A DNA stretch of 64,000 nucleotides, taken from the NCBI GenBank assembly GCA_051362555.1, contig CM120640.1:64892788-64956787 (forward strand), written 5' to 3'. Below the pieces are notes generated by a model, which was not told the DNA's origin, did not search any database, and saw only the letters and a list, made by a program, of their open reading frames with translations. The DNA comes from Lingula anatina (taxonomy: Eukaryota; Animalia; Brachiopoda). Positions 28,331 to 53,145 of this stretch are shown here, in pieces. Both the position numbers and the translations under genes were made by a program. How positions within the stretch are numbered: the first letter of the stretch is position 1; every line of letters begins with the position of its first letter.

Positions 28331-29296
28331 CTAGCTTTCGCAAGGAGTTACTTTGGTTATACTGGGTCTTTGCCCATTGTTATTTTGTGGGGTTTGTCTT
28401 GAAAGTGTTTCAACACTGCCATGACGTGAATCGCACTCTTCGAGTTTGTCCTTCTTATGTTTCTTAGGTCTCACTCTAGAGTGAGAATAATACAGAAAGA
28501 AATTGCTGACGATGATCGGGATTGTCAGAGCCAGCAAAAGAACGCCACAGAACGCTGCTATGGCACCGACGACGTAACCAGGCCCTGAAGTCGGATAGAA
28601 ATCGCCGTAACCTACAGTGGTCAAGGTGATGATTGACCACCAGAGCGTTGTCGGAATATCCGGGTACTGGCAAGCAGGGTTGTTGATGTTGTCTGCAAAG
28701 AACATCAGCGATGAAAAAATCAACATGCTGATACAGAGAATGACGAGTGTAAGGGCTATCTCTGCAAGACTCTCCTTCAGCGAGTACAGAATCACTTTCA
28801 TTCCAACATAAGACTTGGCCAATCGGAAGATACGAAAAACGCGGGCAATTTGAAGGATGTGGATGAAGTCCAGAACAGAGTGCGTGAATAATTCTTTGGG
28901 GTTAGAAATGTTCATTATCAGTTCTATGTAAAACGGCACCACAGCTATTAGATCGATAATAGTCAGTGGTTCCAGAAAGAAACGACATTTTCGTGGACAA
29001 AATATAAACCGCATCACCAATTCAAATGTGAAAAAGCATGCACATATCACGTTTATTATTTCCATAGCCGGATGAAGAAGGCTATATGATTCGTTTGCAT
29101 GCGCTGCTGAGGTTTTATTGGCGAGGTCGTTGTATTCATACATTATTTCCTGGTACGTTTGGTCATCAACGTGGAATATTGAAAGCAAATTCTCCCATTC
29201 TGGATCACCTGGCTTGATGCGGAATGCTTCATGGGTATCCATGGCAAACACGAGTATCGACACAATGACAAAGAACAAGGAAACGCTCAGATATAC
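28331..29296 (-). CDS. Shaw/Kv3-family voltage-gated K+ channel paralog A, exon 2 (S1-S6, C-terminus)
   Basis: ctttcag|GTA TAT CTG...; S4 ILQIARVFRIFRLAK, pore WWSIITLTTVGYGD, S6 LALTIPIIVSNFFLYYSH (Shaw-type SNF..YYSH). With exon 1, about 489 aa. Confidence 0.95.
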   Translation of the reverse strand, partial: VYLSVSLFFVIVSILVFAMDTHEAFRIKPGDPEWENLLSIFHVDDQTYQEIMYEYNDLANKTSAAHANESYSLLHPAMEIINVICACFFTFELVMRFIFCPRKCRFFLEPLTIIDLIAVVPFYIELIMNISNPKELFTHSVLDFIHILQIARVFRIFRLAKSYVGMKVILYSLKESLAEIALTLVILCISMLIFSSLMFFADNINNPACQYPDIPTTLWWSIITLTTVGYGDFYPTSGPGYVVGAIAAFCGVLLLALTIPIIVSNFFLYYSHSRVRPKKHKKDKLEECDSRHGSVETLSRQTPQNNNGQRPSITKVTPCES

Positions 29297-29756
29297 CTGA
29301 AAGGACAGGAAGGATTTATGAGAAATGGGGAATAATCTAATAAAATGTGGCAGCTATCAATCCAAATTACAGAGTTTGATATGTAAATTACGTGAGAACG
29401 CTTGCCATAGGTAAGAAAAATAATGTTTACATGTAAGTTAATGCATTAACCCCTAAGGTAACCTCCTAAAATTTGAATTTTATCATGGATAAAATTGTTC
29501 AACTTAAAGGTGACAGGACGTAAGATTCTAATAATAATAAATCTCAATAGTCTGTACTTCAGTTTTGAATCTTTACTGCATTGCATTCAAATTATTGAAT
29601 TACACATGGCGCTTTTATCAAAATCATAAATTAAGTCACGACCTCTCTTTAGTAAGTTAACTGGAAGTTCAAACACTTGAAATCAGGATAAAAAAACGGT
29701 CGTCTGGAGGTATGCGAATGTGCAAACCTGTCAGATACACTCACGGGAGTCTTGCG

Positions 29757-29931
29757 CATTCAGAACAGTGGACCAGCAGATCTGGGGATCAATCATGGCA
29801 ACCGACTGAAAAACTTGCCGCTTAATTCCCGATTAGACACTGAAGAGATTCCCCGCGGGGATTACGCAGCAAGTATTCTAGTGGGTCGGCCATATTTGAT
29901 CCGTGGATCTGTTAGTCCGCTGTTCTAAATG
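29757..29931. mobile_element. Degenerate palindromic MITE (same family as 14781-15081)
   Basis: CATTCAGAACAGTGGAC ... GTCCGCTGTTCTAAATG with inner imperfect pairing; right arm resembles 14990-15075 and 5363-5440. Confidence 0.55.
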
Positions 29932-30230
29932 GACTCATAGATGGTTAAGATGGTCGCATGTAGTTTTGTTATGGGGCAACAAGGTCTCATCAGTCTCAAG
30001 TCACTCTCTAATGGATCTCACGATGGGCTCTCAAAAATGTTACCAGTCGTTGCAGTAGGTTTGCAAGTACATGTAGGTCTCATAGCGATCGCCAACGGTC
30101 GAGTAGAAGTCTTACAGGAATTTCCATGTACTAGCAACTCGATTTCTAGCAGTGGCGCTGGGTTTCACCTGCTTGAACGCTAGAAACTTGATTTTGGTGA
30201 CGCCAAAAACAATGACATCAACTTGAGAAC

Positions 30231-32129
30231 AACTAGAGGATCAGAGAGGCGATACCGCCTCCGGATATTGTACCACCAGCTGGAGTAAGCGCATTCGTAT
30301 GGACCCCCCCCCCACCCCTCCAAAAAGGGACGCCATCACCAGTCTTGTGCTTGACAAGCTCTATAAGATGCAATCAATAAGAGTTCTCAAAATATGCAAA
30401 AAAATATAACTAAAAATGGTATAATCAAGCAGATTTTCGAATTGACTTGCATTTTCCTACCCTTGATCACTCCTGTATTCTCTAGACAAAAGGCCTATTG
30501 GTTTTCCCAACTTGGTTTTCCTTGAAAAGTGTTGTCAATGGTGCATATATGCTGACAAAAGAGAAAACCTAGGGGCAACAAGGAGCACATCTCTGCTAGT
30601 TTTAAAGATATGAGAGGCAAGAAAATATGCAAAGATCAGTTCATGGTGAAAAAGTAGGTCAAAGGTCAATTTCAATATCATAGTAAATGAATTTCTATTC
30701 AAGTTCAATAGCAACTATGGGTATTTCTTTGCCAATTTTGCAGATTTAAAGGCCTGAAAACATGCAAAAAGCAGTTCATCATAAAAAGTAGGTCAAAGGT
30801 CAATTTCAAGGTCACAGATTGCTAGTGTATTACTTCCTATTCAAGTTCAATAGTAACTATGGACCTATCTCTGTCAGTTTTGGAGATAAAGGAGAAAGAA
30901 AATTTGCAAAGTTCAGTTCATAGTAAAAAGATGGTCAAAGGTCAATTTTAAGGTCACAGTAAATTGCCAGTATATGACTTACTACTTAAGTTCAATAGTA
31001 ACTATGGACCTATATCTGCCAGTTTTGATGATAAAATGGAAAGAAAATTTGCAAAGTTCAATTCACGATGAAAAGTAGGTCAAAGGTCAACTTCAAGGTC
31101 ACACTTAGATTGCCAGTATATGACTTCCTATTCAAGTTCAATAGTAACTATGGACCTATCTCTGCCAGTTTTGGAGATAAAAGGGAATGAAAATTTGCAA
31201 AGTTCAGTTCATGGTGAAAAGTAGGTCAAAGGTCAATTTAAAGGTCACAGTAAATTGCCAGTATGTGACATCCTATTCAACTTTAATAGTAACTATTGAC
31301 CTATCTCTGCCAGTTTTGGAGATATAATGTTACAATTCTGAGTTACAATAATGTGCCACCACAATGTACTTTTTAATACAGCATAACACGAAAACCGTAT
31401 GAAATACTAAAAACGGAGACCATACGCAAGGTTGGGCTTTACATGCTCTACAAAATGCAAAAAAGAACGGGTCGCTAGCATTAACGGTTCCCGAATTAGA
31501 GACAGTTTTCAGTTTCGGTATCTTATGGCCGCTTCTCCCGTGAAAATGCACCGATTGACACCAAATTCACGGAGATGAAAGAAGACCCAAAGGGTAACAC
31601 TTTCCAATAATATTATTGGTTAAGTCTGTGTAGTGTCTGAATAACAGCGCAAATAATATTTTTTTGTAAAAAATTTCATTTTTTTGAAAATTTTGGCCCG
31701 TTTGACCTTGAAATAAAGGTCAAAGGTCAAATCCAAGGGCATATTTGAAATCTACACGTATGACTTTTGGAAAGCCGTCTGTAGAAAATTTTCCCATAAT
31801 TCCTTCCGTAGGGTAGATAATTGGCATTGAATTTTCAAAAATTTTGACAAGGGTGCATTTCAACGAGCGTCACGCCCAGGTTAATGTACCGACTGAGACA
31901 AAAAAACCTGGGGGTTCAAGTTGAGGTTATATGTGACCTCAATCCAAGAGATGGGGACAGGGGTCCTTGCGGTCTAGGAGGAGAAGCGGTAACGGTGACT
32001 TGTATCCGGCGCCAGTACGCGGAGCCGGCGGAGCTTACGGAGCCGGCGTACGGAGCCGGCGGAGCCGGACGAGACGGGTCGGGACTAAAACCATGAGTAC
32101 CGCCAGCGTACACGCTGGTGGTACTAATA
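30231..32129 (-). mobile_element. HINE-like element copy 3 (complete, inverted) in the intron of Kv paralog A
   Basis: Reverse complement has both termini of copy 1 (TTATTAGTACCACCAGCG 5'; GGAGGCGGTATCGCCTCTCTGATCCTCTAGTT 3') and about 5 array units. Confidence 0.82.
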
Positions 32130-32574
32130 ATACCAATGAGAGTGTTCGCTTTAAGGTTTCTATAGCAATGCAACCAAACATCAATTTCACTGTAAAGCCA
32201 TCAAGTGAAGCATAACTCAAAAGTTGCGTAACCAGCATGCCTTGTAACTAGAGGGTCTCTCGTGACCTGTGAGACCCATCGGGGAGTGACTTGAGACTTC
32301 ATGGAACCATGTTACGCCAACATGAGGCCTCTTGTGATGGTCACTGGTCGCAAGACTTTGCCAGTCTTATGAAAAATTACATTGAAAACCGGAGAACGAT
32401 GAAGAGTGATGTAGACGAAAAGGGACGACTTGGGAGACAATCAAAATCAAGGCACCATCTTGATGCCCTATGGCTGTTCTTAGTGACCGATAGCGAGAAT
32501 AGGTCAAAAATGTTCTGTCCCACTCAAACAAGTAGATTTGGATTTATAATTCTACATTGTTTTTAAAGACTTAC

Positions 32575-33078
32575 CTTGGCGCCTAGGCTAGATGAAGGGT
32601 TGTCTAAGTAGTTCCACACTTTTCTTCTAGTTGTCTCCCATTTAGATGCCTTCCTATTTTCTTGCACTTCCATGTCTTTGCCTAAAAAGGAATCAAACTT
32701 AGCCAGAGAAGCCTTTTGTTCTTGAAAATTCGAGTAGTTCACCCAGCAACATTCCACCACTTCATTTTCGTCTATTCCCCAGAACTCCAGCTCGTTCTTC
32801 ATGGCCGGTCCGCACGTGTCCAGTGGAACATGCAGCTCGCCGGTGCGGTAAAAGTTCAGAATAGCGCAAAATATACCGGGGTGTCGGTCGAAGAAATAGT
32901 CTTCCTTTGCAGGCCGATAATAGCGCATCAGTTCCTCCTTATCTGCTAGTAGACCTGTCGCTTTATTCTGGAGAGTGTGCAAACTGACTTCATGGATTGA
33001 CCCCCCAACGTTCAATCGAACGGTCCCGCCATAGACGCCAGCCTCCCCATCTGGAGTACCCGTGACCTTTAAGCTCAT
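32575..33078 (-). CDS. Shaw/Kv3-family K+ channel paralog A, exon 1 (T1 domain)
   Basis: VRLNVGG...YFFDRHPGIF..ILNFYRTGELH-X5-C-X20-CC (Zn site of non-Shaker T1); ends LGAK|gtaagt, phase 0. Confidence 0.95.
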
Positions 33079-33975
33079 TCTAAGTTACTGACCAAATTTT
33101 CACTGTAGTACAAGCAGTTTGTGCAACAGCTTCCGCTCCGTGTACACAACTATGTGATAGAAGTATGGTTTTTGGTCCGGCGACAAAAATTCTTGCGATG
33201 GCCAGGCCGCGATCGCGATTGATTTAAGTTCCGTTCTTCGATACTAACTGCCCCTAAATGCCAACGATTGTTTTCTTGTTGCCTTTGACAGTCACATCGA
33301 TTGACATTCTTTGAATACAATTAGAGTTCCCGTGCAATAGTATCTCGTCAGCAAGGTGATGCAGTACGTCATTCAACATGAAAGGAAACTGGCACCTGGA
33401 CTTAGTACTAGATCTAGCTCGCTTTGAGTGTCTCGCTTTGAAACAAGGAGAAAATGTGTTCGTGCAACATTCACCGAATAATCCACTTGCAGCTGTGCAA
33501 TCAGATTTGAACGTCAGGAACTACGTAGCGAAGAGTCCTCTCTGAAAAATTAACAGCCAAATTATTTTCATACCATTTTGCCTATTTTGAAATCAAGTAT
33601 GTGACCAGCACAACAGCTTGTTTGTTTTGTTTCGCACTATTTATTCAGCGTCTGTGCTATGTGTCACAGCGACCAAACAGTGATGATGGTAATGTAGACT
33701 GTCAATAATCTAAACAAAGAGCATCGATTGAACTCTTCACAAACCTGCACTTATAAAAGTGAAAATTGATTCTTATGAATGATTGGCAATTAAATGGGAT
33801 TTATTAATGCTGAAAACCTTTCCTGATATTGGGCCATACAGATAACCACACATCTTTTGGACGAGATCACCAATTGTCCGTTTATCAAACTTTTCTCTTT
33901 TTTTTTTTTTTTTTTTTTTGACAATATTTATACTTTTACTTTTAAATGCATATTAACTTTGATTGTCTTTAAGTA

Positions 33976-35636
33976 CAGACTTGACATTTAATATGGAATA
34001 TTTCAGTTTCGAAGGTATGCCTAGGTAAAAATTCGTTCTTTTTTCAAAAAACTCCTATCTCATATAGGATTTGTGAATGGAGAAGTGTGTAGTCTGGTGT
34101 GTCGCTACCAATTAACTGACTTCCATGTCTGTTGCGCTGCTACTTTATGTAAAGTGCGGTGATTTAATTGGGTAGTGTTCCTTTGGGCTGGTCAATGCTT
34201 GGCTTAGGCAAATCTTGGTTCTGTCAAAAAAGTATCCGTATGTCGGCAACTATTCCAAAGAAGAATTTGAAATTTTGCATGCAAGCGGTCAGTTTTGCAG
34301 TGCGTAAAATTAGCTAATGAGTGCTTTATAAATTTGTAAATTTGTGGCAGAATGGCGCGAAAAAGACAGACATTACCAGACAGATTACAGCGCCAAACGG
34401 AACGGTCCGCACAGTTTTATAGAGTAATGCCCAGACTGATGTAACTACACAGAGGTCACACCCAATGCATCGAAATCTTATCTCCAGGGTACAGGACGCA
34501 CTGTCTTTCGGGATACGCTGCTGCAACTAAACAAAAGCCACCCAGTCTGTTCAGAACGAGGGGTAAATTGCCACCAAAATGCGTTTTTCAAGGCCCTTAA
34601 CGAGCACCAAACTGGTTTTAGCAGGTTAGAATACCAGATGACCTGCGAGGTACCCACTGTAAACAGCAAAACATCGTCGTCTGTTTCTCTAATGAATTGG
34701 GGGCCATGACCGTTTCTGGGTTGAACACTGAAACCGCGTGGCTTTCTTTATTGAGGTCAGATTTCACCTGTACCTCCCAGCTAGTCAAAACAGAGTTTAC
34801 AGACATCCAGAAGAGGCCTACGACGAAGCATGTACCGCGTGTAAAGTGACACGGGTCATTGACAGCGTCAGTATTTGGAGTGGATACCACATTGGTGCCA
34901 AAACACCAATGGTAGTCATTGACGAAAACCTGAACCAGATCAAATAAAGGAATAATCTGGGAACCACTTGACTATCATTGGATAAGGGGCACCTTAGGAA
35001 CAATTTTAGGTTGCACGGTCAGATTGCCAGTTCACACAGAGCACTTTTAATAGCAGATAACTTACAGAACCAAGGGAATGAGCAGCTACCCTGGTCATCA
35101 AAATCGCCACATTTGAACCGCATAGACAATATGTGGGTAAGCCATTACTCGCCGAATCAACTGCTTACATGCCCTACATCAAAACTGGACCAAATTGGAC
35201 AATTTTGGACCGATGCCTGGAATAATATTCCAGATTGAACTCTAAAAACTTTTCCCAAGGAATGCCTTGCCGCTTGAGAGCGCTGGTAACAGACAGAAGA
35301 GGCCAGGCGTAACAGCGACCGTTACTATGACTACACACTGACATGAGGGTCCATTGTGTAGCGTATAACTCTTTTACAGACGATAATTTTGAAAATATAG
35401 AGATCCAAAATATCTCTTTCAATGGATGTCGTATGACATAGAATAGGCAATGTATTTCTGTTTGCCTCACTGTCGAATTCAACCAATGAGCTGGTGTCAG
35501 CATGACATCAAAGAGATAATTTAAAGTTATTAAAACACGATTTTAATCCTTATCTTCATTTATCAGTCAGCAAAATAGCAAAAAACTGATGAAAAATGAC
35601 TTGGAAAAAAATATTCCATATTAAATGTCAAGTCTG
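33976..35636 (+). mobile_element. Tc1-family DNA transposon with decayed transposase
   Basis: TA|CAGACTTGACATTTAATATGGAATATTT ... AAATATTCCATATTAAATGTCAAGTCTG|TA (28-bp perfect TIR, TA TSD). Broken transposase motifs SVSIWSG, WSSKSPHLNRIDNMW (cf. WPSQSPDLNPIENLW), and an out-of-frame GMPCRLRALV. Confidence 0.9.
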
Positions 35637-38600
35637 TATATTGGGATCAGTTTTCAATGAAATAAGAATACAAGGTTTTAAATAAAACTTATAACTTATA
35701 ATTTGACAGCTCATTTCAGTAACTCTTTGCACTAGAACTGCTACCTATAAAACTTAAGCTCCAGTCTGACACGTCTCTATTGTACAACAACTAATTTACA
35801 TTTTTAATCACCATTTAAATCACGACTTCTTTATCTCTCTTTTCTGTCAATAACAGGTGTGCGTATTCACGATGCACTGTACAAAGAATTGCACGTGACA
35901 CGTAACTTTTCATGATGCTCCATCTGAATATAATAAACCTGATTTATCTGCATAATATCTTACATTTTTAATTACCGAATAATGGTTGATTTCTTTATCT
36001 CTCTTAATAAAAGGTTCACTGTTTGCATATATGTAACGTACTGTTCAAAGGATTGCATGTAACATCTAATTAGTTAAGAGGTTACATCTAAATATATTAA
36101 CATTAACTTACAAAATCATTTTATCTCTTTGGGTTGAAGTTCAACCCGTTTAGCAAGTCGGCTTATCGACACCTTCTGATTATTTTTAATTAGTATAGAT
36201 GTAGAAACGTAGTGTAGTTTCGAATCTTTTACAAAAAAAATGCCTCCAATCCACACCTGTGTTGTTGTTTTATAAAGTTTAAATTTACAATACAGCTGCA
36301 AACAAGATTTTATTTCACAAATGCGTGGAATGATATCCGTGACGGACGATATCCTGAATTTCAGAGGACACGGACACTCACTTCTCTACTATCAGCGTGC
36401 CTTGTCCAGTGTTCAAGTGTGCGAGGTGCTTGAATCGACATAGGTATGCTGACAGTAGAATGGCGAGTCCCCAGTGTCTTCTCCAACTCAGGGTTAATGA
36501 GGGAACACCAGGACATTATTTTTCAGCGTCTCTGGGGTCGGGGATCCCTCACTGTCTTGTAAACAGAATTAATACATCTCTTCACGCAATTCTGATTCAT
36601 CTGCTGTAACTTGGACAGAATCATAAATTTAGGCTATACTGTCAGTATTGTCAGCGAAATGCGTATTTTTTCCTAATTGGAGATTTTGCATTTATTTCTT
36701 TGATAATTGATTGGGTAAACCGCTATTTCAGGTCTCGCGAGTTTCAATGGGTTCACTGGCCTCGACGGTTGAAAATGATGTATGCCACTATAATGCGATC
36801 ACCGCTGTCTATGGGATATGACCCTGCCATTTAGTTCCCAGCCCCAAACGATTATACTGGCGCAGTAAGGAAGTACCGCTGAGCGTGCTTCCTGCGTTCA
36901 GTGCACCAAAATACATCCAGCTTGATTGCAAGAAAGTAAGTGGCATCCTCAGGCGAGATTTGTTCGGTCTCACATGGTGCTTCTTAGATTGTCACTTGAT
37001 ACACAGAGGGTTTGATTGCCAATGTAGTTATCATATTTGACATTTTTTCATGGGGTAACGAGGAAAAATCCAGAGAAATAAGAGAGTCGATTTGTTTTTC
37101 TCGTGCGTACACGTTTTTATTTCTTTTTTTTCCTCTTCTGTGAAAGCTTTTTAGAATTATTCACAGTGGTTGATTTCGAATGAATTCTTAATGCAAAGTG
37201 CTCTTTCAAATGAACACAAATCCCTTTGAGGCAGAACGTTACTTTCAGCGGCTTTAATATTTTACTCTTATCTAAAGATTCACCAACTGTGTTATGTTAT
37301 AAAAATAAATGATTTTAAAGTTTGGATAGCCTTATTTCCTGGTGAAGATGCTCTGAGAGACATCGAATTATTGGGGGTCAGTATAATCTGTCAATATAAG
37401 CTGTTGATTGAAGAAAAATTTGAATTTGGCAATATAACCGATTTTTTGGTAAAGTAAGTCCATACATTGTGACAAGTTAAACCACAGATGGGTTACCCAC
37501 CTGGATCCAGACAGATCGACTTAAAAGTGAAGGTATCGATCGGCAAATTTTACACAAGGATGCCATAATATTGCAGAGAGTTGGTTGCTCAGTGATCCGT
37601 ACAGGACCCTATTATAAATTACCTTACCCTTTACAGCAGTCATCCTAGCTCAGTGTATTCCGGTCGGAACCTCATTACATCCACTAATTGAATGACAGGC
37701 CACTCATCATCCAAGTCATCGCCGTGCCAATGGTTTTATTAAAAATAATTCATCGAGGACACTAACAACGGCTAAGGCACTCGCACATTCTTCAACAAGA
37801 CTGTTATCGTCAAAAATTAATCACTAACACACACGCACATACACGCACGCTCATGCATATACGTATAGTAATAACAATTTTACATTTTATTCAGAGTGGT
37901 CACTTACAAAGAGTGATGCCTTCAATACTGTTAATCTTTAAAAATACCATACACATGCGCATACACACACGCGCACACACACAGTATGGAAAAACGTATG
38001 CCCGTTGTACATGTTTTCACTTACCTAGATACCGAGATGTCGGCCCGTGGCTGTGATTCTCCTTTCCTGCAGAATGTGAACAGTGCAGTGTTTTAGTGGG
38101 AATCAATGCAAAAACAAAACTACATATGCCTCACCCTGTGCCGAGAGACGAATTTACACTGATTTATCTCCTTGGCCTGTGTCATCATATTTTATGACAT
38201 TCTCTGTTATTAGACTCTGTTTCTCTAATAGAAGCACATAAGTGACGACTCCTAATTATGTGCAGTAGCCGTGTTAACACCTGCGACGGTTACGCGCGAG
38301 CATTCCTCTAGGTGTACGTTTTAAAGCGTGTATTAGCTGCAGAAAGCGTGTGCAAGTGTTCATGGCCGCGCAGACCATTAATTTAGTTTCTCTTCGAGGC
38401 GAGACAAAATTTATAAGGTGGTTAGCGAACGCGATTGACCTCTATTTTGAGAAAATGGGAATTTTTGCACTTTTTTTTTTTCAAATTAAAATGCAACGGG
38501 CATTAGTTTGGTAGGTGGTATACTCTATCGATTTACCCCCCCCCCCCAAGTTACTTTGCTACTTAAACATCAGACGTGCATGTTCAAATAAAAACAAAAA

Positions 38601-39780
38601 TAAGATTCGTCTACCAACCATGTTTACAGACAGTCACCGCTCGTTAAACCAACTTACCAATATGGCCTGGCTTTGCTATGTCCATATTATACGATGTATG
38701 CCGCCCTTAAAAGCACTTGGAACGTGAAAAGAATTTGATATAACATTTTAAAGAATGTTTCAGTGACATATAATTCCTTACGCAGTCATTTCGTAACCTT
38801 ATCCCATCACTTGCTGTCGAAATTTTGCAGTCAGGTGGTTCAGATACATAAATTTGGCAAAAACAAAGAATTAAACCTAAGCTCACCAGCATGCTGTTGC
38901 GTACAGGTAGCACACGACTAATTGTTCAATATTGCGATACTGCAACGCTTCCCAGCATCATATGAAATACGCAACTCGGTAGGAGTGAATCAAAACTGAT
39001 TTCAGTATGGATTTGTATCACAGCACATAATTTCACATTATATTGACCACATAATGGAAGTGTAATACATGGATGGGATCCGATGGCAAACGAAAAATGC
39101 CGTGGGATCAAGCAGCTTTTACTTACCGTCTGTGAAAATGAATGGTCTATCCTCTTGGTGCTTCTCACGCTGTGTCTCTCCTAGTTCGCCTGCCTCTGTT
39201 TCTTTTACTCTTTACATTGTAATTATGAACTTAGCATGCATCTCAAATTCAGCAATTTATTCCAGATGTCTAAAAATACACACACTTCCTTAATGGCCTC
39301 TTTAGACAGGCGGACAGTGACCCGTGATGGCTTCAAAAGTGACCGGGCGATATATCTATGTCTTTCACTAATCAAATTTGCCTGGTATCCAAGTTCACTA
39401 TCTTATCACGAACTCTCCCTGGTATCAAGTAATCGCTTGTAAAACACGAACTTATGACACCTAGCACATGATGGGTTTTTAACGCCTGTTTTCTGGAAAT
39501 CAATTTACTTGCATTTAGCCAAAGTATGCAACGGACACGGATTACAAACATAATGGCTTGCAATATCCATGTTGCCTTTTGAAAGCTGTTAATCAAAAGA
39601 GAGATAACAGATTTTAAGTTTTATTCAACAAGAAATTGAAATTAAAATTAAGAGTAGTTATATGGTTTCTGAATCAGACCCAATATTAAATATGGTCATT
39701 TTCTTATATTAGAGTACCTAGTTCCTAAAGTTTAAATATTTTTATAACAGTTGTAGGCTTCATCCATTTTCGTATGTATA

Positions 39781-39783
<3 letters not shown>

Positions 39784-39855
<72 letters not shown>
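39784..39855. repeat. (TA)n microsatellite
   Basis: About 36 uninterrupted AT dinucleotides. Confidence 0.97.
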
Positions 39856-39857
<2 letters not shown>

Positions 39858-42298: not shown

Positions 42299-43322
42299 TA
42301 TGGCTGGTATAACGTTATTCTGTAGCCTGGAACCAATGGCTATAGTGTTATGTTTTTTACCAAAATCTAAAGGGGTGGTTGGCATATATTGGACTCGGCC
42401 CTTTTTATATGCCCTTGAATTTTGGGCAGTTGCACGTAACTGACTCAAATACTGTAGTACAATAGAACTAATTCCAAACGATGTGTATTTGCAAATGGCC
42501 CCACTTGCAATACTACAATGACATATCGTCCAAATGATAACACAGACTTGAACAACTGACTAAGAACTGCTAGACAATTGTTTTAGACCTATAACTTAAT
42601 TCTGTAGCCAGAAGAGCCTCTGTGTGAGAGGCCTATATTGCATCTTCCAAGCGCTACGCTTGTCGTGGTAGGTACTTGTACTAAACTTCCTTTAATTCCA
42701 GCTTAAAATGTCTTATTCGTGTCTAAATTATTCATCCTCCTGATGCTACTGGGAATAGCGCTAATGCTTTAATAATCACAAATAATCCTTACGTTCATCA
42801 CTGACTTATAAAAGCAGAGCAAAGAGCTATTACTAGTACTCTCTGCGTCCTGCATTACATAATAATAAAAAACGCCTGTTTCTAAATAGACAAATCATGT
42901 TACCTGAGCACTTTTATGCAAGATTACATTATATACATATAAATTTACTGTGGCTATCATTCCTTGATACATGCTAGTACTAAAATGCAACTTAGATTAC
43001 TTTTGCCCTCAATATTCAAACTACCACAAATAATTAGGCCTATCATTACATTACCTCTAGACTTCTTTACTTTCATCAATAATGTGTTTTAAAATTTATC
43101 TACATGAAATGGAAACATGACTTAACAAATAATCAGATATCGTAACAGAATTCTGTTCACTCCCACCGAAGAAATTCATGTCTTTGAAGAAGTTAACTAT
43201 AGTATAATGGCCTTTTTTAAGATTACAGTAGCGGATTTATACTCGAAAGCAGTTGTCGTTGCGCCAATGGTTGGTACGAGTGTCTTCACATTTTCTGTCG
43301 TTAATGTGAATACAATGTAATG

Positions 43323-44267
43323 TTAAATTTGTGTTGTGATCGTGGGCTGTGTCTGGTTGTCATGCTCGTAGGCCTTGTTTTGGTACCCCTCTGAGGCGCC
43401 ATTAACTGTTTTTGGGTCGACATTTGAATCTCTTTTCTTTGGGGTTGTCCTGGCGTGGGAATAATACAACATGAAGTTGTTGACAACGATTGGCACCGTC
43501 ATCGCCAGGCAGACCACTCCAAAAAATGCCGAAATTGCACCAATGATGTACCCTAACCCGGATGTGGGCACGAACTCCCCATAGCCCACAGTGGTCAGCG
43601 TGACGATGGACCACCACAAGGTGAGCGGGATACTGGTGAACATACTGTCCTCATTGTTTACATTATCTGCATAAAACATTAATGTTGAACAAATGAGCAT
43701 TGTGATCACAAGTATGATAAGAGTCAAGGTCAGTTCCGCTAGTCCCTCCTTTAGCGAATACAAAATAACCTTCATGCCGGTGTAGGACTTGGCCAGGCGG
43801 AAAATACGAAAGACACGTGCAATTTTGAGAATATTGATGAAACCAAAAACGGTTTCACCAAACATATCCTCTGGGTTAACAATGTTGATCACCAGTTCTG
43901 CATAAAATGGCGCAATGGCTAGGACGTCAATGATGCTTAGAGGGTACGTGAAAAACCGTGCCTTACTTGGACTAAATATGAAACGGATGAAAATATCCAG
44001 TGTAAAAAAGCTTGCACATATGACGTCAATCAAGACCATCGCTGGGTGTAGTAATGCGTAGTCTTTGTTTGCTCGACCAAGTGAGGTTGAGTTAACTCGG
44101 TCCCAGTAATCTGTTATTATTTGCAGAGTCTCATTGTTGGCTACGAAGAAGGAGAGGGTTGTCGTCCATAAATTATCTGCCGGAGTAACTTGAAAATATG
44201 GATGGGAAGCCAGTACGAAGACAATGATAGACAGGACAACGAACATCAGAGACCCAGCAGCATAAGC
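43323..44267 (-). CDS. Shaw/Kv3-family K+ channel paralog B, exon 2
   Basis: ctttcag|GCT TAT GCT...; S4 ILKIARVFRIFRLAK, pore TTVGYGE, S6 LAMTVPIVVNNFMLYYSH; about 486 aa total. Confidence 0.95.
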   Translation of the reverse strand, partial: AYAAGSLMFVVLSIIVFVLASHPYFQVTPADNLWTTTLSFFVANNETLQIITDYWDRVNSTSLGRANKDYALLHPAMVLIDVICASFFTLDIFIRFIFSPSKARFFTYPLSIIDVLAIAPFYAELVINIVNPEDMFGETVFGFINILKIARVFRIFRLAKSYTGMKVILYSLKEGLAELTLTLIILVITMLICSTLMFYADNVNNEDSMFTSIPLTLWWSIVTLTTVGYGEFVPTSGLGYIIGAISAFFGVVCLAMTVPIVVNNFMLYYSHARTTPKKRDSNVDPKTVNGASEGYQNKAYEHDNQTQPTITTQI

Positions 44268-44574
44268 CTGAAAGAAGACAATGGAGTCCCAATAGTACCT
44301 TTAGTTTTTTCTTTAAGAAATGGATGAACTAAAAGGAACAATTTATTTGTCATAAACTGACGCAAAAGTGCTTTGTGTTGGTTCATGGCAAATTAATTCT
44401 TAATTATTAAACAATAATATAATAACAAGAGCTTTTGACTAGAAAAGGACAACCGCTACATGATTTAGGTATTTAGACACTAGGTCCTCATTGTTTTCAT
44501 TATTGTAAAAAATATAAAGTTTTTATATGAAGAAGGTTATTTTCAAATAGCAAATTATACATATGTTAAGTCAC

Positions 44575-45090
44575 CTTTGCGAAACAAGATGCGTCCGGGT
44601 TTTCCAGGTCATTCCAAATTCTACTTCTTGCTTGCTCCCAATTGGAATCAGTTTTCTTCGGTTTCTCGTGAGTCTTGCCTAGAAAGGAATCAAACTTTGC
44701 CAGCATATCTTCCGTTTTCTGATAGCTGGAATAGTTACCCCAACAGCACTCTGCCATTTCGCTGTCATCTATCCCCCAAAACTGTAACTCAGCTTTCACT
44801 GCCGGGGCACAGGCATTCACGGGGATATGCAGTTCCCCTGTACGATAGTAGCTAAGGACTGACGCAAATAAATCCGGATGGCGGTCGAAGAAAAAATCAT
44901 TTTTGTCAGGCCTGTAGAACTTTTTCAGCTCTTCGAAGTTTGGAAGAATTTTTCCCTTTTTACCCTGTAATGTCTTCCATCCAACTTCATGGATGTCCCC
45001 TCCAATGTTGAGGAGTAAAGTCTCTGGTACAGCTTCCGACGCCGTGACCTGCTCTGTGTCCGTCATGGCGTGAATGACGTCTCCATTCAT
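44575..45090 (-). CDS. Shaw/Kv3-family K+ channel paralog B, exon 1 (T1 domain)
   Basis: LLNIGG...FFFDRHP...YYRTGELHIPVNAC...ECCW; ends FAK|gtgact, phase 0. Confidence 0.94.
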
Positions 45091-46360
45091 GCCTGTCCTT
45101 TAAGGTGGTGGAAAGAAAAGGAACATGTCCATCTTGAAATCTTAGAGGCGTCGCCTCTGATACTGGATGACATATATCAGGGACGGAGTGGACCTTCTCG
45201 TGTACTGAAAATATTAAGTACAACATGTTAGATTACTTTAGCAGTGCCCGTCAAAGCACGTCAAAGTTATTTATAGTTTGACGTGATGTATGGTATCAAA
45301 TACGGTGAGCAACGACTTGGCGACTTTTAATATTGAAATTTTATAGGGCCATCGGAGACTTTTTAACAGGAAATCGGAAAATTCTTAACAGAACTTCCAT
45401 AGCAGAAAGAAATACTGTGTGTATATGGCAATGCACATATGGTTGTGCTTGTGTTAGGTGTATCGTTAAATCGTCCTGTTCTTGTCCTTATGCAGCAAGC
45501 AGCGATAGGGTGGGATACTTCCTGCGATGACTCGTTAGTCATGATCATCCTGGATGTCAACAGGATATTACCAAGCTAAGGTATCAACAGAATATTATGC
45601 ACTTATAAAAATAGTTACTGCAAAATATAATAACAAACAGTGTTTTCTGAATTATATCAGATTTTATAAAACCCCTAAAAACAAAATACCGATGTGTATA
45701 TGTATGAGTGCATATTTTTGGGAAGGGGGTTTACCGCGTTTTGGCTCCGCTAAACAATGTTTAAATGCAATTTTACGATAGGGCTCATTCTCGCATATTA
45801 TACACGTACACGATGTCGAGGTATATTAACATGAATTAAATGTTCCTTTTGGCATTACGATTTTAATGGTCCGTACGTGATCATTACTGTTTCCACGACG
45901 GGCGGCTATATCAATACCTCTGTTGTGAAACATAAATTTCCAACCTGGTACTTATGGGTGCAGATTAAAATTAGATAGAGCTAGGGAGTCCAATGTATGA
46001 CCATTGTCTTCCTATGCCTAAGGTACCACTTATATAATTGTCTTATACCGGGGCACAATTTCCAAACTTTGTGATGTGAGATTTCCATTTTAACAATTTT
46101 TTATAAGCTGTTGTACAATTCTCTGTATAAAAAGCCTTCCCACACGAGACCTCTGCGTGTTATGATATGGGGCACTGTAGTTCTGTGATTTCATTTTAAA
46201 GGATAGGCGAGATAACAACAGCCTTTTTTTCTTACTAGAAACAGAGAAAGGTATGGAGTAACAAGACGCAGTTATCCTCCTCCCCCCTCTCTCTCTTTCT
46301 CACCAAACAAAGAACGTTTTATAACGTTATTATAACGTAACGATAACGCACCAAGCACTC

Positions 46361-46652
46361 CCGGTGGCGGATTAAGAGGGGGGGGGGGGCAGGGGTGTCC
46401 TGACCCCCCCCCCCCCCCTTCGGTTACTGAACAATATATCACACCAACATTCCTCTCTTGAAATAAGAATTTTGGCTAGCTAAATCATAGTTCTTAACCG
46501 TGCCAAAGGGCACTGTTTGCTCTCCAAAACACCAAAAATATTTGTGGCCCTTCGGCAGGCCCCGAACCCCACACCAAGGAGGCGACGGTCGGCCTCGCAT
46601 CTGAGGCCTGTTGTTCCGGACACCCCTTCAAATAATCCTGGAACCGCCCCTG
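46361..46652. mobile_element. Small non-autonomous DNA element (hAT-like CAGGGGCGG termini, G/C runs)
   Basis: Left CCGGTGGCGGATTAAGAGGGG, right CCTGGAACCGCCCCTG; degenerate, TSD not clear. Confidence 0.45.
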
Positions 46653-49600
46653 CTCCCTACACCCATCCACCCGCACACAAACACACTATGAGTGGTTTCG
46701 CATGCGTTGGAATCACTTCTTTCGTTTTTTACGTTAAGAACCAGATAAAGCTGTAAAACTTTCAAAAATATATAAGACATATTATCATCATTATTATAAA
46801 TGAATGGAAATGGAAAATGGTACAAGACAGTTACACCTTGCGATGCTAACCTGATTTTCAATACATGACTAAGAAGCGATCGACAATTCCACCTCTTTCT
46901 ATTCTAAAATTCTTTTACACATAGAAAAAATTATATTGATGAAAACAGAGGGATAGGTTTCCTTTAAAAGAATGCACACAATTCCATGCGCCATAGCAGA
47001 GGTCGTGCCACATGCATCTCTACTTCGTATTTTCATGTGGTCTTTGCAAGGCCATCTCATACACTGTTCTAAAGCGCCTTTTTCCTTTGGATTTCTGATA
47101 AAAATATAGTTATTAAGACGATATAAAAGTAACATGTTGTGACCACATGATATTAAATGAGAAGATGAATAAAAAGACCTTGGCGGTTTGTGTTTGGTCG
47201 CTGGATCGTCACACTCAGTACATACAATCAACAGTGTTGATATAATAAAAAATATATCCAAAAGAAATGATATTAATACCTTTAACTTAATCACACACTT
47301 GTCCATCTCAAACTTACTTACTTTGGTCCAGTTATCGTCCAGTGCATAGAGTCGTAGCTGCCGCTCCTCGCCGTGTCCTCTCTTAATGGTGAACGTCACA
47401 TGTATGAAAAAGGGTCATTAAGAAAGTGAACAACTACACCTATGTATAAACTATATGTATATTTATCATGGTCGCTGTATAGTTGTCTGTCTCACGCCGT
47501 CTTTTGGACGCACGTCAACTTGATTCATAGCCGCTCAGGGGATAACTTACGCGTGTTTTTCGTGCCTGTGTCTATCCTCGTTAGGTGTACAAATACAAGC
47601 AATGTCGTCTTCCTTCATATTTGATTACTCATATTTGATTTGATTATTATACAAGTACATACCTAATAGTTATACAGTACAATCACCCTAATGGACAGCG
47701 CGCACCTGTTAGGATGCCTCTCCTCTATTGGGTGTGATCTCAAGGTACAAACAGGTTGATTTTCTTCTCGGTCACAGCAGACAAGAAAACGAATATCAAA
47801 CATTATTTGCTATCATTGCACGCAGATAGGAATTTTGTCTATTATTTGTGAACCGCCGGTGACACGGATATTTAACCAAGGATGCAGTTGACTGTGCTCA
47901 TATGTATGTTTGTAAATATATTTGCTGTTTACATCAGGCAGATCTTACATCAAACTACTACCAAAATCTTATTACACGGACTGCGTGATGATCACATGTA
48001 CAACAGGATTGGACTACATTAAATTGCACGAAGGCTAAAAAGAAATTAGCACCTGTCAAGCGTACTTTTATTCCTTCCCCCCCCCCCCAAAAAAAAAGGG
48101 AAAAGAATAAAAGATATTTTCATATTATAAATACATTGTGGTGTATCAGGAAAATTAGTCTAAATATAATTTTTTATCTATTTATTTCTAATTTTCTATC
48201 AAATATATAATTTCTAAAGTCATAATATTTTATATTGTTACAGTACCAAAGTTATTTTAAAGACTATTCATTAGTGAGGTTATCTTATTAAACGGCCTTG
48301 ATTTACGAAATCTCCGAAAAAACAATATCCGGGGTTGGTTGTTCACTATGTGTGGATGATGGCAAAAAAGTAAAAAGTAAAAGCACTCAACATGCGTCTC
48401 GGTGCGGTTTACATTAGGTGACAATATAACTGGGAATACTTTGGCATGTTTTAGATTGGGTGTAGATGTTCTCGCCTCCCTGAGGAGGATGCAGTGCAAC
48501 TGCCGTATGGGGCGCCGGAAGCTAGCAAAGAACTTTAACCTTTCCAGCCACATCAGGAGTTTGACCCCGGCTTCACCCCTAGATAGCGGAGTGTCTAGCA
48601 GGGGGACAGCAGAGGCTGTTTATGGAGCACTGGTATGTCCCCCGTCCTCCCACTCTGAAATATCTCACCATGACCACAAGGCCAACCATTCGGTCAATGT
48701 TTGTGTAAATGGTGTGAATGTTTGTGATGATTTGGGATGGAAGAGACATAAAAATATTTTCACACGAGGATGACATACAGATAGGGTTCAAGGACACGGG
48801 GTATTGACAAGCCTTTATTTGCGCGACCGTAATATTCTTGTGAAAGAAAAGTCCAACCATAGATCTATTCATTGAGAAAATGCCACAGAAGCGAAACTAA
48901 TCGCATAATACATTATTTATGGTAACAAAGAAATATTTCAGCTACATCATTTCTCGCACTGGTAAACCCGAAGGCCAAAAGAAAAATGAAATGTTTGTCT
49001 CACGTATTTGTAGAAGAAAATATGATAATAATCAAGTTTTGATCTTTTTTAATCTTCACATATAGTTGCGGTATGAATCTTGCGTAATCATACTTTTCCC
49101 AAATCTCTCTAGGACTACCAGAAGACATGCACAACAAAACTATATTACCAAACGTTATGCTACACAACGGCTATATGCCGAAATCATTCAAACGTTAATT
49201 CAAAAGATCATTACCGTGCAAAAATCACGGAAAGACAAATGTGACTTTTTGAGATATTAATTTGATATAAAAGCCTGAATATTTAGATGAACAGTTCGGA
49301 TTTTAAAGTGAAAAAAATGCGAATTATTTCATTACCAGCTTATTTTCATATTAGAAAAAAATTGCCTATGAAAAGTGCTTCCACGATCACATTTTTCACA
49401 GTGTGATACAGGTCACTGAAAGCTACATTCATCTCATTTCTACTTAGTTTACATATAGTTGGCCTGAGTTACACTCGAGTGACGGTGACTTTCCTTTTTC
49501 ATAGCGAAGGCTTTCGGTCAAATAACACTTAATTTATTTTTTTATAAAAGGACGTCTAAAACCAGTATGATGTTGAACTTACTCGTGCTAAAAATACGTG

Positions 49601-51498
49601 CCCTTGAATTATGTAAATGTTAATTTGGATTGTTTGAAAACTATGGCATCATAAAAGGCAGTTTGGAGTTTAAGAACTTTGCTGTGTCGGTTTTTGCTCT
49701 TAACACGTCTGTGTAAATGCTGTTTCATCCAATATACGTTTGATTAGGGGCATTTTTCCCTGTCCATTTTTTTCACACTGCATCTCATTGAAATAAGTGT
49801 CTATGTTAGAATAAGCTGCAGTCCTTTTTCCAGCTGGTTTAAACGTTTTTTTTTTAGTTTAGAAATTTAAAAGTTGAACATTGCACCTCTCCTCCCCTTT
49901 CCATGCAAGCCTTCCCTAATCATTCCCAACGCTCCGGTGTTGACTGTTTAAATAAAAAAATTGGTTGATATAAGGGGCTGTGTAGAGTAACTTAATGATT
50001 TGCAAATCCTAGCTGAAACTAATCTTTCGGTTTTATATCTAAAATTCCCACGTTTAGTGTATTGCACTGTTATCTACTGTATGCTATTAGTGATACATAC
50101 TATTTGACTGAGTGGTCCAAACCTTTTGTGTGTCAGTTGAATTGTAGATTGTGAAATGCATAAGGCTTGGTTTTCAATGCAAAACTTCCAGGAGGCTGGC
50201 ATACAGTATGTAATGCTTTACTACACGTGTGTTGTGAATGACCGGTTACATATATCTTATTATCTCCATGGATGCAGGGGACTGCAACATAATTTTCCAT
50301 TATCATCATTTTGTGTTTTGTGCACACATGTACCTAGATTCTATCTGGTCAATAGCTTACGATGTTCTTATTCGACCCAACTATCTTGCCATCCATGATA
50401 GTTGTCTGTGTTGTCTGTACATAGTTTTGATACAGGTTTCAGTATTGTTTATTCAGTGCTCAAGTCACCCATATTGAGACTACATGCAATGCTTTTTTTG
50501 AGCATATCTGTAACATATTGAATGAGAACGTTACTATGTGCTATCAAAATAAGACAGCCAACCTTTGGAATTAGTGAAATATTCCATGTAACATTACACG
50601 CACAGTCTTATAAAATAACATTATAAAGAAATGAATTGACACCTTTACGACTATAATTACATGGATTTAATAAATTTTATATATCAGGTCTACAAAAACT
50701 GCAAAGGCACAAAAACCGAAGCGAGAGTTTATATGTTTTGGAATAACACATATCGAACCGTGAACCCGTAATATAAAAAAAGCGTATTGATACGCTATAT
50801 TGTGGTACAATTAATTTATTTAGAAATATACCAAATTAAATATTGAGCACCTCAGGGCACAGCAGTTCGTTGCATGAAGTGTGTATGTGCACTGCTGGTT
50901 GTCTCATGAAATGATATCCATCATTATATGCTACGTACATTATAGTACTCTTAGTAACAGAGTCTCCCGAGAGCCATCTCTCATTAATTTTTGCACAAAA
51001 CACCTGTCGATATAGCTTCAGAACTTAACCGGAACAGTGTATGTTATAGATTTTGGAAGTGCTCTTAGTTCTTGTTCATTTGGAGTCTCTTGACAGTCAT
51101 TTTTTGTACCAGATTCTTGTCAAAATGGCTTTTCTGTCGGATCTCATAAAGGTGTATATGTTCTAATAAGTGTCTGTTAATCAACCTTTTACCATCCGTA
51201 CCAACACACCACTGTTACTGACAGCGCGATACCATACGGAGACTGGGAATTACGGTTTCCCATTGGTCACATCAGATTAAATGCTTCTTTTGTACCGGAA
51301 ACAGCAAAGAGGAAAATGTAGAGCAAATGACGACGCTCAGGGGGTCAAAGAGTGAATATGAAGTTCCCTCTGGTAATTTTGAAGCCTATGGAACCTAGTA
51401 GAATATTAATGCATTTACGTGTGCAACATCACTTTGTTTTATCCATATTGTATGGCAAGATGTCGCTTCGCACAGTAAAAGAACAAAATTGTGCAATT

Positions 51499-52476
51499 TT
51501 ACATTCGTTGTTCATTTTCTGCACTTATGCCAGAGACTGGCCGTGCGTCTCCGTTTAAGCTTACAGACAAAATCTTTGGTTCGTTTGGATCAATTCTCTC
51601 AAACACCAAGTCATTTGTTTCCTTGAATTTTGACTTTTTTCTTGGCCTGATCTTTGAATAAGAGTAATAAAGCATGAAATTACTGACGATAATAGGGATA
51701 GTCAAGGCCAATAGCAGCACCCCAAAGAACGCCGTCACCGAGCCCACGATGTACCCGGGTGGAGAGGAGGGATAGGTATCTCCGTATCCTACTGTGGTCA
51801 GGGTGATAATGGCCCACCATAACGTTGACGGTATGTCTGGAAACTTGCTGTCAGGGTTATCGATGTGGTCAGCATAGTACATGAGCGAAGAAAACACTAG
51901 CATAGTAATCAACAGGATAACCACCGTGAGGGCAACCTCTGGGACGCTCTGCTTCAGGGAGTAGAGGATCACTTTCATTCCTGTGTACGATTTTGCGAGG
52001 CGAAACACACGAAAAATGCGGGCAATTTGTAGAATATGGACAAACTCAAAAACCGAATTTTCAAACATTGTTGCAGTGGGGTTAACAATATAAAACCCAA
52101 ATTCCAAAAAGAAAGGTAACACGGCCAAAATGTCTATAATGTTAAGCGGATGCATGAAAAATCGGCATTTCTCAGGACAGAATATGAATCGCACGATCAG
52201 TTCCAATGTGAAAAAAGCTGCACATACGAAATTGATCACCTTGACGCTAGGGTGCTGGAGAGCAAATGCATGATTGGCTTCTTCGATGGAAGTCTCGTTC
52301 ACCATGCGCCAGTAGTCCCCCCTGAGCTTATGGAAAGTCTCGTTGTCAACTCCGAACAGGAGCAATTCCTCTGCCCAAAGTGGGTCATTGGGATACACCT
52401 CCAGGGCAGGGTTTTGGTGCAAAATAAAGGTCACAATGGACAGTATCACAAAGAAAAGCGACGTGAAAGTGTACAC
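51499..52476 (-). CDS. Shaw/Kv3-family K+ channel paralog C, exon 2
   Basis: ttccag|GTG TAC ACT...; S4 ILQIARIFRVFRLAK, pore TTVGYGD, S6 LALTIPIIVSNFMLYYS; about 491 aa total. Confidence 0.95.
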   Translation of the reverse strand: MYTFTSLFFVILSIVTFILHQNPALEVYPNDPLWAEELLLFGVDNETFHKLRGDYWRMVNETSIEEANHAFALQHPSVKVINFVCAAFFTLELIVRFIFCPEKCRFFMHPLNIIDILAVLPFFLEFGFYIVNPTATMFENSVFEFVHILQIARIFRVFRLAKSYTGMKVILYSLKQSVPEVALTVVILLITMLVFSSLMYYADHIDNPDSKFPDIPSTLWWAIITLTTVGYGDTYPSSPPGYIVGSVTAFFGVLLLALTIPIIVSNFMLYYSYSKIRPRKKSKFKETNDLVFERIDPNEPKILSVSLNGDARPVSGISAENEQRM

Positions 52477-52647
52477 CTGGAATCGAACAGTATACATTTA
52501 TAAAAATACATTTCTTTTTAAAATATATTCTTGATTTTACATCCACCAAATAAGTAAGGGAATCAAATAAAAGTTGAATTATTAATTGCAAAATTGCAAT
52601 AAATTTTTTGTTCATATATGTAGCATCAGCAGTATAAATATACACAC

Positions 52648-53145
52648 CTTCGAATACACAGATGAGGTAGGGTTTTCTAGGCCTCTCCAGATGATCTTTC
52701 TCGTCCTCTCCCACTTAGAACTAAGACTGTCAATTTCAACTACCTCTTTAGACAAAAAAGAGTCAAATTTAAGTAGGGCGTCTTTTTTCTCTCTGTACTC
52801 GGAGTAGTTTGCCCAACAGCAGTCTGCTATCTCGTCGTCGCTTATTCCCCAAAAATCTAGCTCTATTTTCACAATGGGAGCACAGTATTCCAGAGGAAGA
52901 TGGAGTTCCCCTGTGCGATAGTAGTTCAGAATCGACACAAACAAACCAGGATGGCGGTCAAAATAGTAATCATCTTTTTCTGGTCGATAGTAGCGTTTGA
53001 GTTCTTCCATTTTGGGCAGAACCGATCCCTTCTTGCCTCTAAATATACTCCAACTGGCCTCGTGCATCCTACCGCCAACGTTGAAACGCAGCGTTTCAGT
53101 GCTCGTCCCTGCATCGGTTTCCATTAATATGTTGTTGTTGTTCAT
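52648..53145 (-). CDS. Shaw/Kv3-family K+ channel paralog C, exon 1 (T1 domain)
   Basis: LRFNVGG...YYFDRHP...YYRTGELHLPLEYC...DCCW; ends YSK|gtgtgt, phase 0; 171-bp intron. Confidence 0.94.

What the first reader, a model, noticed from the sequence alone, without database searches (positions are those of the whole stretch)
28331..53145. Tandem trio of Shaw/Kv3 subunits that all lack the PVP gate: candidate lineage-specific regulatory (silent) Kv subunits
Seen: three intact, same-strand, two-exon paralogs share one phase-0 intron after T1 and keep the T1 Zn motif H-X5-C-X20-CC. S6 reads LALTIPII, LAMTVPIV and LALTIPII where Shaker-family channels have PVP. The Thr is retained in all three clearly diverged copies, so it looks selected rather than decayed. 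Established: PVP-region substitutions characterise non-homotetramerising regulatory subunits (vertebrate Kv5/6/8/9; cnidarian Shaker/Shal/Shaw regulatory subunits). In the vertebrate subunits it is the second Pro that is lost; here it is the first. Inference: an independently evolved set of Shaw modifier subunits, or channels with a non-standard gate.
Basis: partly seen in the sequence, partly recalled or inferred. Interest (0 to 1): 0.8.

Follow-up and report, generated by a model that had tools for sequence, protein, structure and literature searches.

The report
Brachiopod single-proline Shaw channel trio
Three intact neighbouring potassium-channel genes of a brachiopod belong to an old branch, shared with molluscs, annelids, ribbon worms and flatworms, whose gate has a threonine in place of the first proline; they likely build channels among themselves rather than silently modifying ordinary Shaw, but this is untested.

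Summary
Observation confirmed: three intact minus-strand Kv3 genes share one phase-0 intron, keep the Zn motif and have gates TIPIIV/TVPIVV/TIPIIV. Two match Lingula anatina RefSeq proteins; the third is spliced in RNA (40). 'Lineage-specific' is wrong for the gate. The trio nests in a spiralian-wide Kv3 expansion (100/99 with gate columns removed), already drawn as clade M by Jegla 2012; origin from canonical Shaw is rejected. Among 127 representatives, position 1 is Thr/Ser in 114 and the second Pro stays in 122, unlike proven silent subunits, which mostly keep P1 and lose P3/V6. The branch also reverses a Lys/Glu pair beside the T1 zinc site. Best reading (0.55): a separate assembly group with a Thr-assisted single-proline hinge that conducts without canonical Shaw. 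Rival (0.3): silent modifiers, since first-proline mutants of Shaker and Kv1.1 mostly fail. No functional test of the branch turned up in ten literature searches. The scan noted the same branch earlier in a mussel (e1-9890178).

The parts
32575..33078 (-). Gene A coding exon 1 (start codon, T1 domain with Zn motif and reversed E/K pair)
   Evidence: protein matches RefSeq XP_013387572 at all but one residue
29297..32574 (-). Gene A phase-0 intron, 3278 nt, holding a 146-bp tandem repeat (30589-31329)
   Evidence: GT-AG sites; repeat; joint not among the 15 joints shown (176 more not shown); RefSeq model joins the same exons
28331..29296 (-). Gene A coding exon 2 (S1-S6, filter TVGYGD, gate TIPIIV, stop)
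   Evidence: sparse RNA reads, depth up to 1.4, in 3 of 4 runs
28523..28525 (-). Gene A gate Thr codon (ACA) at the first-proline position
44575..45090 (-). Gene B coding exon 1 (T1 domain)
   Evidence: RefSeq XP_013387567
43323..44267 (-). Gene B coding exon 2 (filter TVGYGE, gate TVPIVV; Thr codon 43497-43499)
   Evidence: RNA depth under 1
52648..53145 (-). Gene C coding exon 1 (T1 domain; start Met inferred, the frame is open upstream to 53217)
   Evidence: RNA reads in 2 of 4 runs
52477..52647 (-). Gene C phase-0 intron, 171 nt, spliced out in RNA
   Evidence: 4 joint reads in run X7, 5 in X9, 0 in X1 and X4
51499..52476 (-). Gene C coding exon 2 (filter TVGYGD, gate TIPIIV; Thr codon 51700-51702)

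Best explanation
The three genes are intact tandem duplicates from an old spiralian branch of Shaw/Kv3 channels, and they likely assemble with each other or with branch relatives, not with ordinary Shaw, into potassium channels whose S6 hinge is predicted to work with one proline helped by a threonine. Shown: gene structure, placement in the branch, constraint on the gate, RNA for gene C. Inferred step 1: a reciprocal Lys-to-Glu / Glu-to-Lys change next to the inter-subunit zinc site rewired T1 so that it stays self-compatible but fits canonical Shaw poorly. Inferred step 2: the Thr/Ser side chain hydrogen-bonds back to the helix and tunes the kink of the remaining proline, as in T-x-P motifs of other membrane helices, while the pore-facing gate residues 2 and 6 stay hydrophobic. 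Inferred step 3: with R1/R2 of S4 missing (His/Gln in A and C, Asn/Lys in B) the current would be weakly voltage-dependent, a slow or standing outward K+ current like invertebrate Shaw.
For: Placement: Kv3 99/95, spiralian expansion 100/99, trio plus two more Lingula genes 100/96, with gate and E/K columns left out; grouping with canonical protostome Shaw rejected, p-AU 3e-8. Gate constraint: of 127 representatives, position 1 is T 92, S 22, other 13; P3 122; position 6 V 97, S 23, A 7, never aromatic or charged, against P3 40% and V6 12% in 43 regulatory subunits. Thr/Ser bend helices and modulate proline kinks (PMC12983209 passages; T-x-P in chemokine receptors, PMC4058654 passages). T1 pair: among 109 distinct Zn-loop sequences with a non-Pro gate, 55 are acidic/basic and 0 are basic/acidic; among 78 with a Pro gate, 28 are basic/acidic; the trio is E/K in 3 of 3; all four Zn ligands are kept and the site is inter-subunit (PMC2266617 passages). 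One TVPIVV ortholog group is conserved across brachiopod, annelid, nemertean, flatworm and molluscs (100/100). Filter, pore helix, S6 glycine and S6 tail are intact, and S2/S4 co-vary (Asn with Gln in A and C, Asp with Lys in B). 14 of 21 listed RNA-versus-DNA differences in gene C are synonymous.
Against: All 27 proven homotetramer-forming subunits in the Pisupati set have P1, and 42 of 43 regulatory subunits carry gate substitutions. Shaker P473A and P473W do not conduct and P473D is not matured; Kv1.1 P403S, the closest analogue, is reported to give no current, P403A a small right-shifted one. NvShakR2/3 are regulatory and lack P1 while keeping P3. A likelihood ratio from the published gate tables was inconclusive, 0.23 for TIPIIV and 4-8 for TVPIVV towards regulatory. 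The K/E pair was not shown to be in contact or inter-subunit; 29 of 109 have a neutral second site and 8 are basic/basic; G-E-L-H also occurs in some divergent non-Shaw genes. The representative set was seeded with T-x-P queries, so it is biased; 61 of 476 sequences were left unassigned. Monophyly of all T-x-P genes is unresolved once the gate columns are removed. RNA support for A and B is thin. No functional data for any branch member were found.
Confidence: 0.55

Rival explanations
1. The trio (and perhaps the whole branch) are silent regulatory subunits that join canonical PVP Shaw, probably one per tetramer, and shift its gating; the set would then be spiralian-wide rather than Lingula-specific.
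For: P1 is invariant in 27 of 27 homotetramer-forming subunits and gate change marks 42 of 43 regulatory ones; first-proline mutants mostly fail as homomers; long branches; Kv3 silent subunits evolved at least twice elsewhere, NvShawR and vertebrate Kv3.5; T1 residues conserved in canonical Kv3 are changed at many sites.
Against: P3 and V6 are kept and position 1 is restricted to Thr/Ser, unlike the drift seen in regulatory gates; the reversed T1 charge pair would more likely hinder than favour pairing with canonical Shaw (inference); deeply conserved ortholog groups.
Confidence: 0.3
2. Genes A and C pass ions mainly through the voltage sensor (gating-pore or proton current), like flatworm N.at-Kv3.2, with the central pore secondary.
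For: His at the R1 position and Gln at R2 in A and C (Shaker numbering recalled); N.at-Kv3.2 has His at R1 and conducts through the gating pore, and Shaker R362H passes protons (PMC2443804, part 1 of 5).
Against: N.at-Kv3.2 also lacks R3, which the trio keeps; canonical Shaw likewise lacks R1/R2; gene B has Asn/Lys; whether N.at-Kv3.2 belongs to this branch could not be checked.
Confidence: 0.07
3. The genes are decaying duplicates and the gate change is neutral.
For: Low read depth for A and B; no protein identical to C among the listed hits.
Against: Open frames, saturated dS with dN about 0.38, spliced RNA and mostly synonymous variation in C, the same Thr across five phyla.
Confidence: 0.02

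Closest known systems
Lophotrochozoan Shaw expansion, clade M of Jegla et al. 2012 (PMC3519636, Fig. S2; Lottia 13 and Capitella 9 Shaw genes)
   Same: Two of its tips, C.tel_157089 and L.gig_71678, are proteins P0033 and P0365 in my tree and fall in the same 100/99 clade as the trio.
   Different: In the passages and supplements I saw, the paper gives the clade only as an expansion; it does not discuss the T-x-P gate or T1 changes, includes no brachiopod and expresses none of the genes.
Canonical Shaw/Kv3 (human Kv3.1, Drosophila Shaw, lophotrochozoan Shaw)
   Same: Best PDB sequence and fold match is Kv3.1; T1 Zn motif, six helices, GYG filter, loss of R1/R2 as in invertebrate Shaw.
   Different: About 35-37% identity; PVP replaced by T-I/V-P; T1 K/E reversed to E/K; S2 Glu to Asn/Asp; S4 Lys5 to Arg; gene B has GYGE.
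Regulatory (silent) subunits: vertebrate Kv5/6/8/9, Kv3.5, Nematostella ShakR/ShawR/ShalR (PMC6279357; bioRxiv 10.1101/2025.09.21.677649)
   Same: Departure from PVPVIV in a long-branch paralog set; NvShakR2/3 also lose P1 and keep P3.
   Different: Those mostly keep P1 and lose P3 and V6; none has Thr at position 1; the trio changes only P1 apart from Val/Ile swaps. Inability to form homomers, the defining trait, is untested here.
Aplysia aKv5.1 (Zhao et al. 1994, Neuron 13:1205)
   Same: Recalled, not read: a molluscan Shaker-family channel only about a third identical to the four subfamilies that gave a non-inactivating low-threshold current on its own; title and one citing sentence seen. 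It would fit this branch.
   Different: The paper is not held and its sequence was not identified among my hits, so membership is an untested lead.
Notoplana N.at-Kv3.2 (PMC2443804)
   Same: Divergent spiralian Kv3 with His at R1; the branch has flatworm members (Macrostomum).
   Different: Lacks R3 and conducts through the gating pore; its S6 sequence was not visible in the text.

Membership tests
Shaker-family Kv, Shaw/Kv3 subfamily | T1 (BTB_2) plus six-helix Ion_trans domain with GYG filter | tested here: met
Shaker-family Kv, Shaw/Kv3 subfamily | T1 Zn motif H-X5-C-X20-CC (Kv2-4) | tested here: met
   3 of 3
Shaker-family Kv, Shaw/Kv3 subfamily | Groups with Kv3 against Kv1 and Kv2 in a tree | tested here: met
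   99/95; no Kv4 row in that tree; one Kv4 row
Shaker-family Kv, Shaw/Kv3 subfamily | PVPVIV gate consensus | tested here: not met
   TIPIIV, TVPIVV, TIPIIV
Shaker-family Kv, Shaw/Kv3 subfamily | Co-assembles with canonical Kv3 subunits (functional definition of a subfamily) | not testable with these tools
   needs co-expression; reversed T1 charge pair hints against it
Lophotrochozoan Shaw expansion (Jegla 2012 clade M) | One clade with C.tel_157089 and L.gig_71678, apart from canonical Shaw | tested here: met
Regulatory (silent) Kv subunits | No current as a homotetramer | not testable with these tools
   needs expression
Regulatory (silent) Kv subunits | Changes the current of a canonical partner | not testable with these tools
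   needs co-expression; Lingula canonical Shaw was not among my hits
Regulatory (silent) Kv subunits | Atypical substitution in the six-residue gate | tested here: met
   P1T in 3 of 3
Regulatory (silent) Kv subunits | Typical pattern: P1 kept, P3 and/or V6 lost, gate drifting | tested here: not met
Regulatory (silent) Kv subunits | Self-incompatible T1 | tested here: inconclusive
   interface changed but reciprocally, Zn ligands kept; the paper finds no consistent T1 signature; no complex model could be obtained

The most novel reading that the evidence does not exclude
Spiralians evolved a fifth Shaker-family assembly group out of Kv3: dozens of genes with a charge-reversed T1 interface and a natural Thr-x-Pro hinge that conducts although first-proline loss disables Kv1 channels; the Lingula trio is a local expansion of it, and Aplysia aKv5.1 may be its one recorded member.
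Probability: 0.35. Interest if true: 0.72.

Novelty: new variant of a known kind. Interest (0 to 1): 0.5.

Why it matters
The first proline of PVP is invariant in proven self-assembling Shaker-family channels and its loss causes epilepsy in people. A large natural branch that has kept Thr/Ser there across five phyla is a ready test of what that proline does and which compensating changes rescue it. Either outcome is informative: a conducting T-x-P channel with its own T1 code would add an assembly group to a family held to have four, and a silent result would give spiralians their first regulatory Kv set. It also concerns the many uncharacterised Shaw-like genes in molluscan and annelid neurobiology models. 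The trio itself is not special; the branch is.

Tried and rejected
Whole genome not held, so Lingula canonical Shaw and the full paralog count could not be read; three further Lingula T-x-P genes came from protein searches. Complex prediction of a T1 tetramer was not available; no result. The single-chain model (pLDDT 75.5 overall, about 53-65 around pore and S6) shows S6 as one helix, too coarse to judge a kink. Careful mixture-model tree did not finish in three runs; I report the quick mixture tree and a careful LG+G4 tree without the gate and E/K columns. In one search the T/S-x-P group had 84 SH-aLRT and one P-to-non-P change, but that tree included the gate columns; without them the group is unresolved. 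The trio's sister relation to nemertean genes (89) was not recovered. Attempts to place aKv5.1 failed; the one Aplysia hit, XP_012944267, gate TIPSLV, carries no such name. No indexed RNA holder was listed; runs were added by species label. Gate likelihood ratio inconclusive. ESM Atlas returned only generic Kv clusters. Papers on T1 specificity and Ser/Thr kinks by PMC id were not held. Supplements of the 2025 bioRxiv preprint (Table 1, Kv3 alignment) could not be seen and may list more of this branch. Rejected: Lingula-specific origin of the gate, pseudogenes, assembly duplication (53-54% identity), Kv2-type silent subunit (tree).
Full report
Observation. The window holds three minus-strand Kv genes: A (33078-32575, 29296-28331), B (45090-44575, 44267-43323) and C (53145-52648, 52476-51499). 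Each has one phase-0 GT-AG intron at the same codon before S1 and an open frame of 486-491 residues. All keep H-X5-C-X20-CC. S6 reads LALTIPII, LAMTVPIV and LALTIPII, and alignment to human Kv3.1 places the Thr on the first proline. The copies are 53-54% identical, with dN 0.37-0.39 and saturated dS; the Thr codons are ACA, ACG and ACT. There is no fourth copy in the window.

Identity and expression. A and B match Lingula anatina RefSeq proteins XP_013387572 and XP_013387567, each at all but one residue; no protein identical to C was among the listed hits. Raw RNA reads (6-30% of each run read) cover C in 2 of 4 runs and skip exactly its 171-nt intron, 4 and 5 reads. Of the 21 coding differences in C among the 40 rows shown (59 more were not shown), 14 are synonymous (p = 7e-5 against 25%).

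How widespread the gate is. The first homolog search already returned T-x-P gates in gastropods, bivalves and annelids. Further searches added cephalopods, nemerteans (Lineus, Tubulanus), the flatworm Macrostomum and three more Lingula genes. In a 58-row tree with the six gate columns and the two T1 charge columns removed, Kv3 has 99/95 support, a spiralian expansion of 37 rows 100/99, and the trio groups with two other Lingula genes at 100/96 inside a 20-row mollusc-annelid-nemertean-brachiopod subclade at 97/90. Forcing the five Lingula genes together with canonical protostome Shaw is rejected (p-AU 3e-8). With gate columns included the tree needs one Pro-to-non-Pro change; without them the two T-x-P groups and a Pro-keeping group are unresolved, so one or two early origins are possible. 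The duplication is local, the gate is old. Jegla et al. 2012 drew this expansion as clade M (PMC3519636; passages, Fig. S2 tip labels and searched rows of Table S1 seen), and two of its tips are in my tree. A 2025 preprint notes separate Kv3 duplications in lophotrochozoans without detail (section 14 and passages seen, supplements closed).

Is it a silent-subunit gate? Pisupati et al. 2018 (PMC6279357; sections 10, 14, part of 19 and Table S2 seen) give P1, P3 and V6 at 100% in 27 homotetramer-forming subunits, and P1 88%, P3 40%, V6 12% in 43 regulatory ones, with no Thr at position 1. From 494 stored proteins I dropped 5 duplicates of the trio, 4 without a filter motif and 12 with several, added the trio, and assigned 476 by similarity upstream of the gate; 243 fell to the T-x-P group and 61 stayed ambiguous. 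Among 127 representatives at 70% identity, position 1 is Thr 92, Ser 22, other 13; P3 is kept in 122; position 6 is Val 97, Ser 23, Ala 7. This looks like a new constrained motif rather than drift, though the set is biased by T-x-P queries. Ser and Thr bend helices by bonding back to the main chain and can raise or lower a proline kink (PMC12983209 passages), and T-x-P shapes a helix in chemokine receptors (PMC4058654 passages); applying this to S6 is my inference.

Evidence the other way is real. Shaker P473A and P473W are non-conducting and P473D fails to mature (PMC2233862 passages). Kv1.1 P403S is reported to give no current and P403A a smaller current shifted by +30 mV (PMC9331732 passages). 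Nematostella NvShakR2/3 are regulatory, lack P1 and keep P3. A likelihood ratio built from the published tables did not decide the matter.

The assembly domain. Comparing 71 branch members with 24 canonical Kv3 rows shows a reciprocal change beside the zinc site: Lys (92%) becomes Glu (74%) two residues before the His, and Glu (96%) becomes Lys (61%) five residues after the lone Cys. Among 187 distinct Zn-loop sequences, the 109 with a non-Pro gate are acidic/basic in 55 and basic/acidic in 0, while the 78 with a Pro gate are basic/acidic in 28 and acidic/basic in 7, two of which are the tree's Pro-keeping branch members; 29 of the 109 have a neutral second site and 8 are basic/basic. The zinc bridges neighbouring subunits (PMC2266617 passages). 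I could not show that the two charged residues touch (not mentioned in PMC9287412 passages; complex prediction unavailable). If they do, the swap would keep self-assembly and disfavour canonical Shaw, which would require channels built from T-x-P subunits to conduct.

Predicted behaviour. Filter, pore helix, S6 glycine and S6 tail are intact. S4 keeps R3, R4 and two further basic residues; R1/R2 are His/Gln in A and C and Asn/Lys in B, matched by Asn or Asp at the outer S2 acidic site; canonical invertebrate Shaw also lacks R1/R2 (Shaker position names recalled). I therefore expect shallow voltage dependence. His at R1 recalls flatworm N.at-Kv3.2, which conducts through its voltage sensor (PMC2443804, part 1 of 5), but that channel also lacks R3. 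The model's best structural match is Kv3.1.

Novelty. Ten literature searches found the expansion but no description of its gate or T1 change and no expression of a confirmed member; the library lacks most subscription papers. Aplysia aKv5.1, which I recall as a divergent channel active on its own, may be a member; only its title and one citing sentence were seen. Verdict: real, selected, a variant of a catalogued clade, function open; separate conducting group 0.55, silent modifiers of canonical Shaw 0.3; interest 0.5.

Noticed in passing
window 43323-44267 (-) and protein P0006/P0124: Gene B and its closest Lingula paralog have the filter GYGE instead of GYGD and Val where A and C have the outer-mouth Tyr; may alter slow inactivation and external TEA block (recalled Shaker pharmacology).
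   Followed up: no
window 51499-53145 (-): Gene C, the best expressed of the three in the runs laid, had no identical protein among the listed hits and may be missing from the annotation.
   Followed up: partly
window 12668-14264, 19118-19697, 30589-31329: A 146-bp tandem repeat family in introns; the copy in gene A's intron draws RNA depth over 1000, strand-biased in run X5, so the family is heavily transcribed somewhere in the genome.
   Followed up: no
window 55677-58735: Foldback-type element: long inverted arms built of 184-bp repeats around a DDE_3 transposase fragment at 56727-57350, upstream of gene C.
   Followed up: partly
window about 3141-20270 (+): Multi-exon gene with ankyrin repeats and a Pro/Gln-rich tail, convergent with the channel trio.
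   Followed up: no
window 59733-60089 (-): ORF with a signal-peptide-like start followed by a Cys motif reminiscent of a frizzled domain start (recalled); no Pfam hit.
   Followed up: no
window 51080-51363: Reads of run X9 skip 282 nt in the 3' region of gene C with six other letters between; probably an insertion polymorphism.
   Followed up: no
proteins P0436, P0438, P0449, P0451, P0452, P0470, P0472: A Pro-keeping part of the same expansion has gates such as PIAVIA and PIPIIA (P3 and/or V6 lost) that fit the silent-subunit pattern better than the trio does.
   Followed up: partly
proteins P0033, P0029, P0349 and relatives: A strongly conserved mollusc-annelid ortholog group has gate TIPVIS (V6 to Ser) and His at the fifth S4 position.
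   Followed up: no
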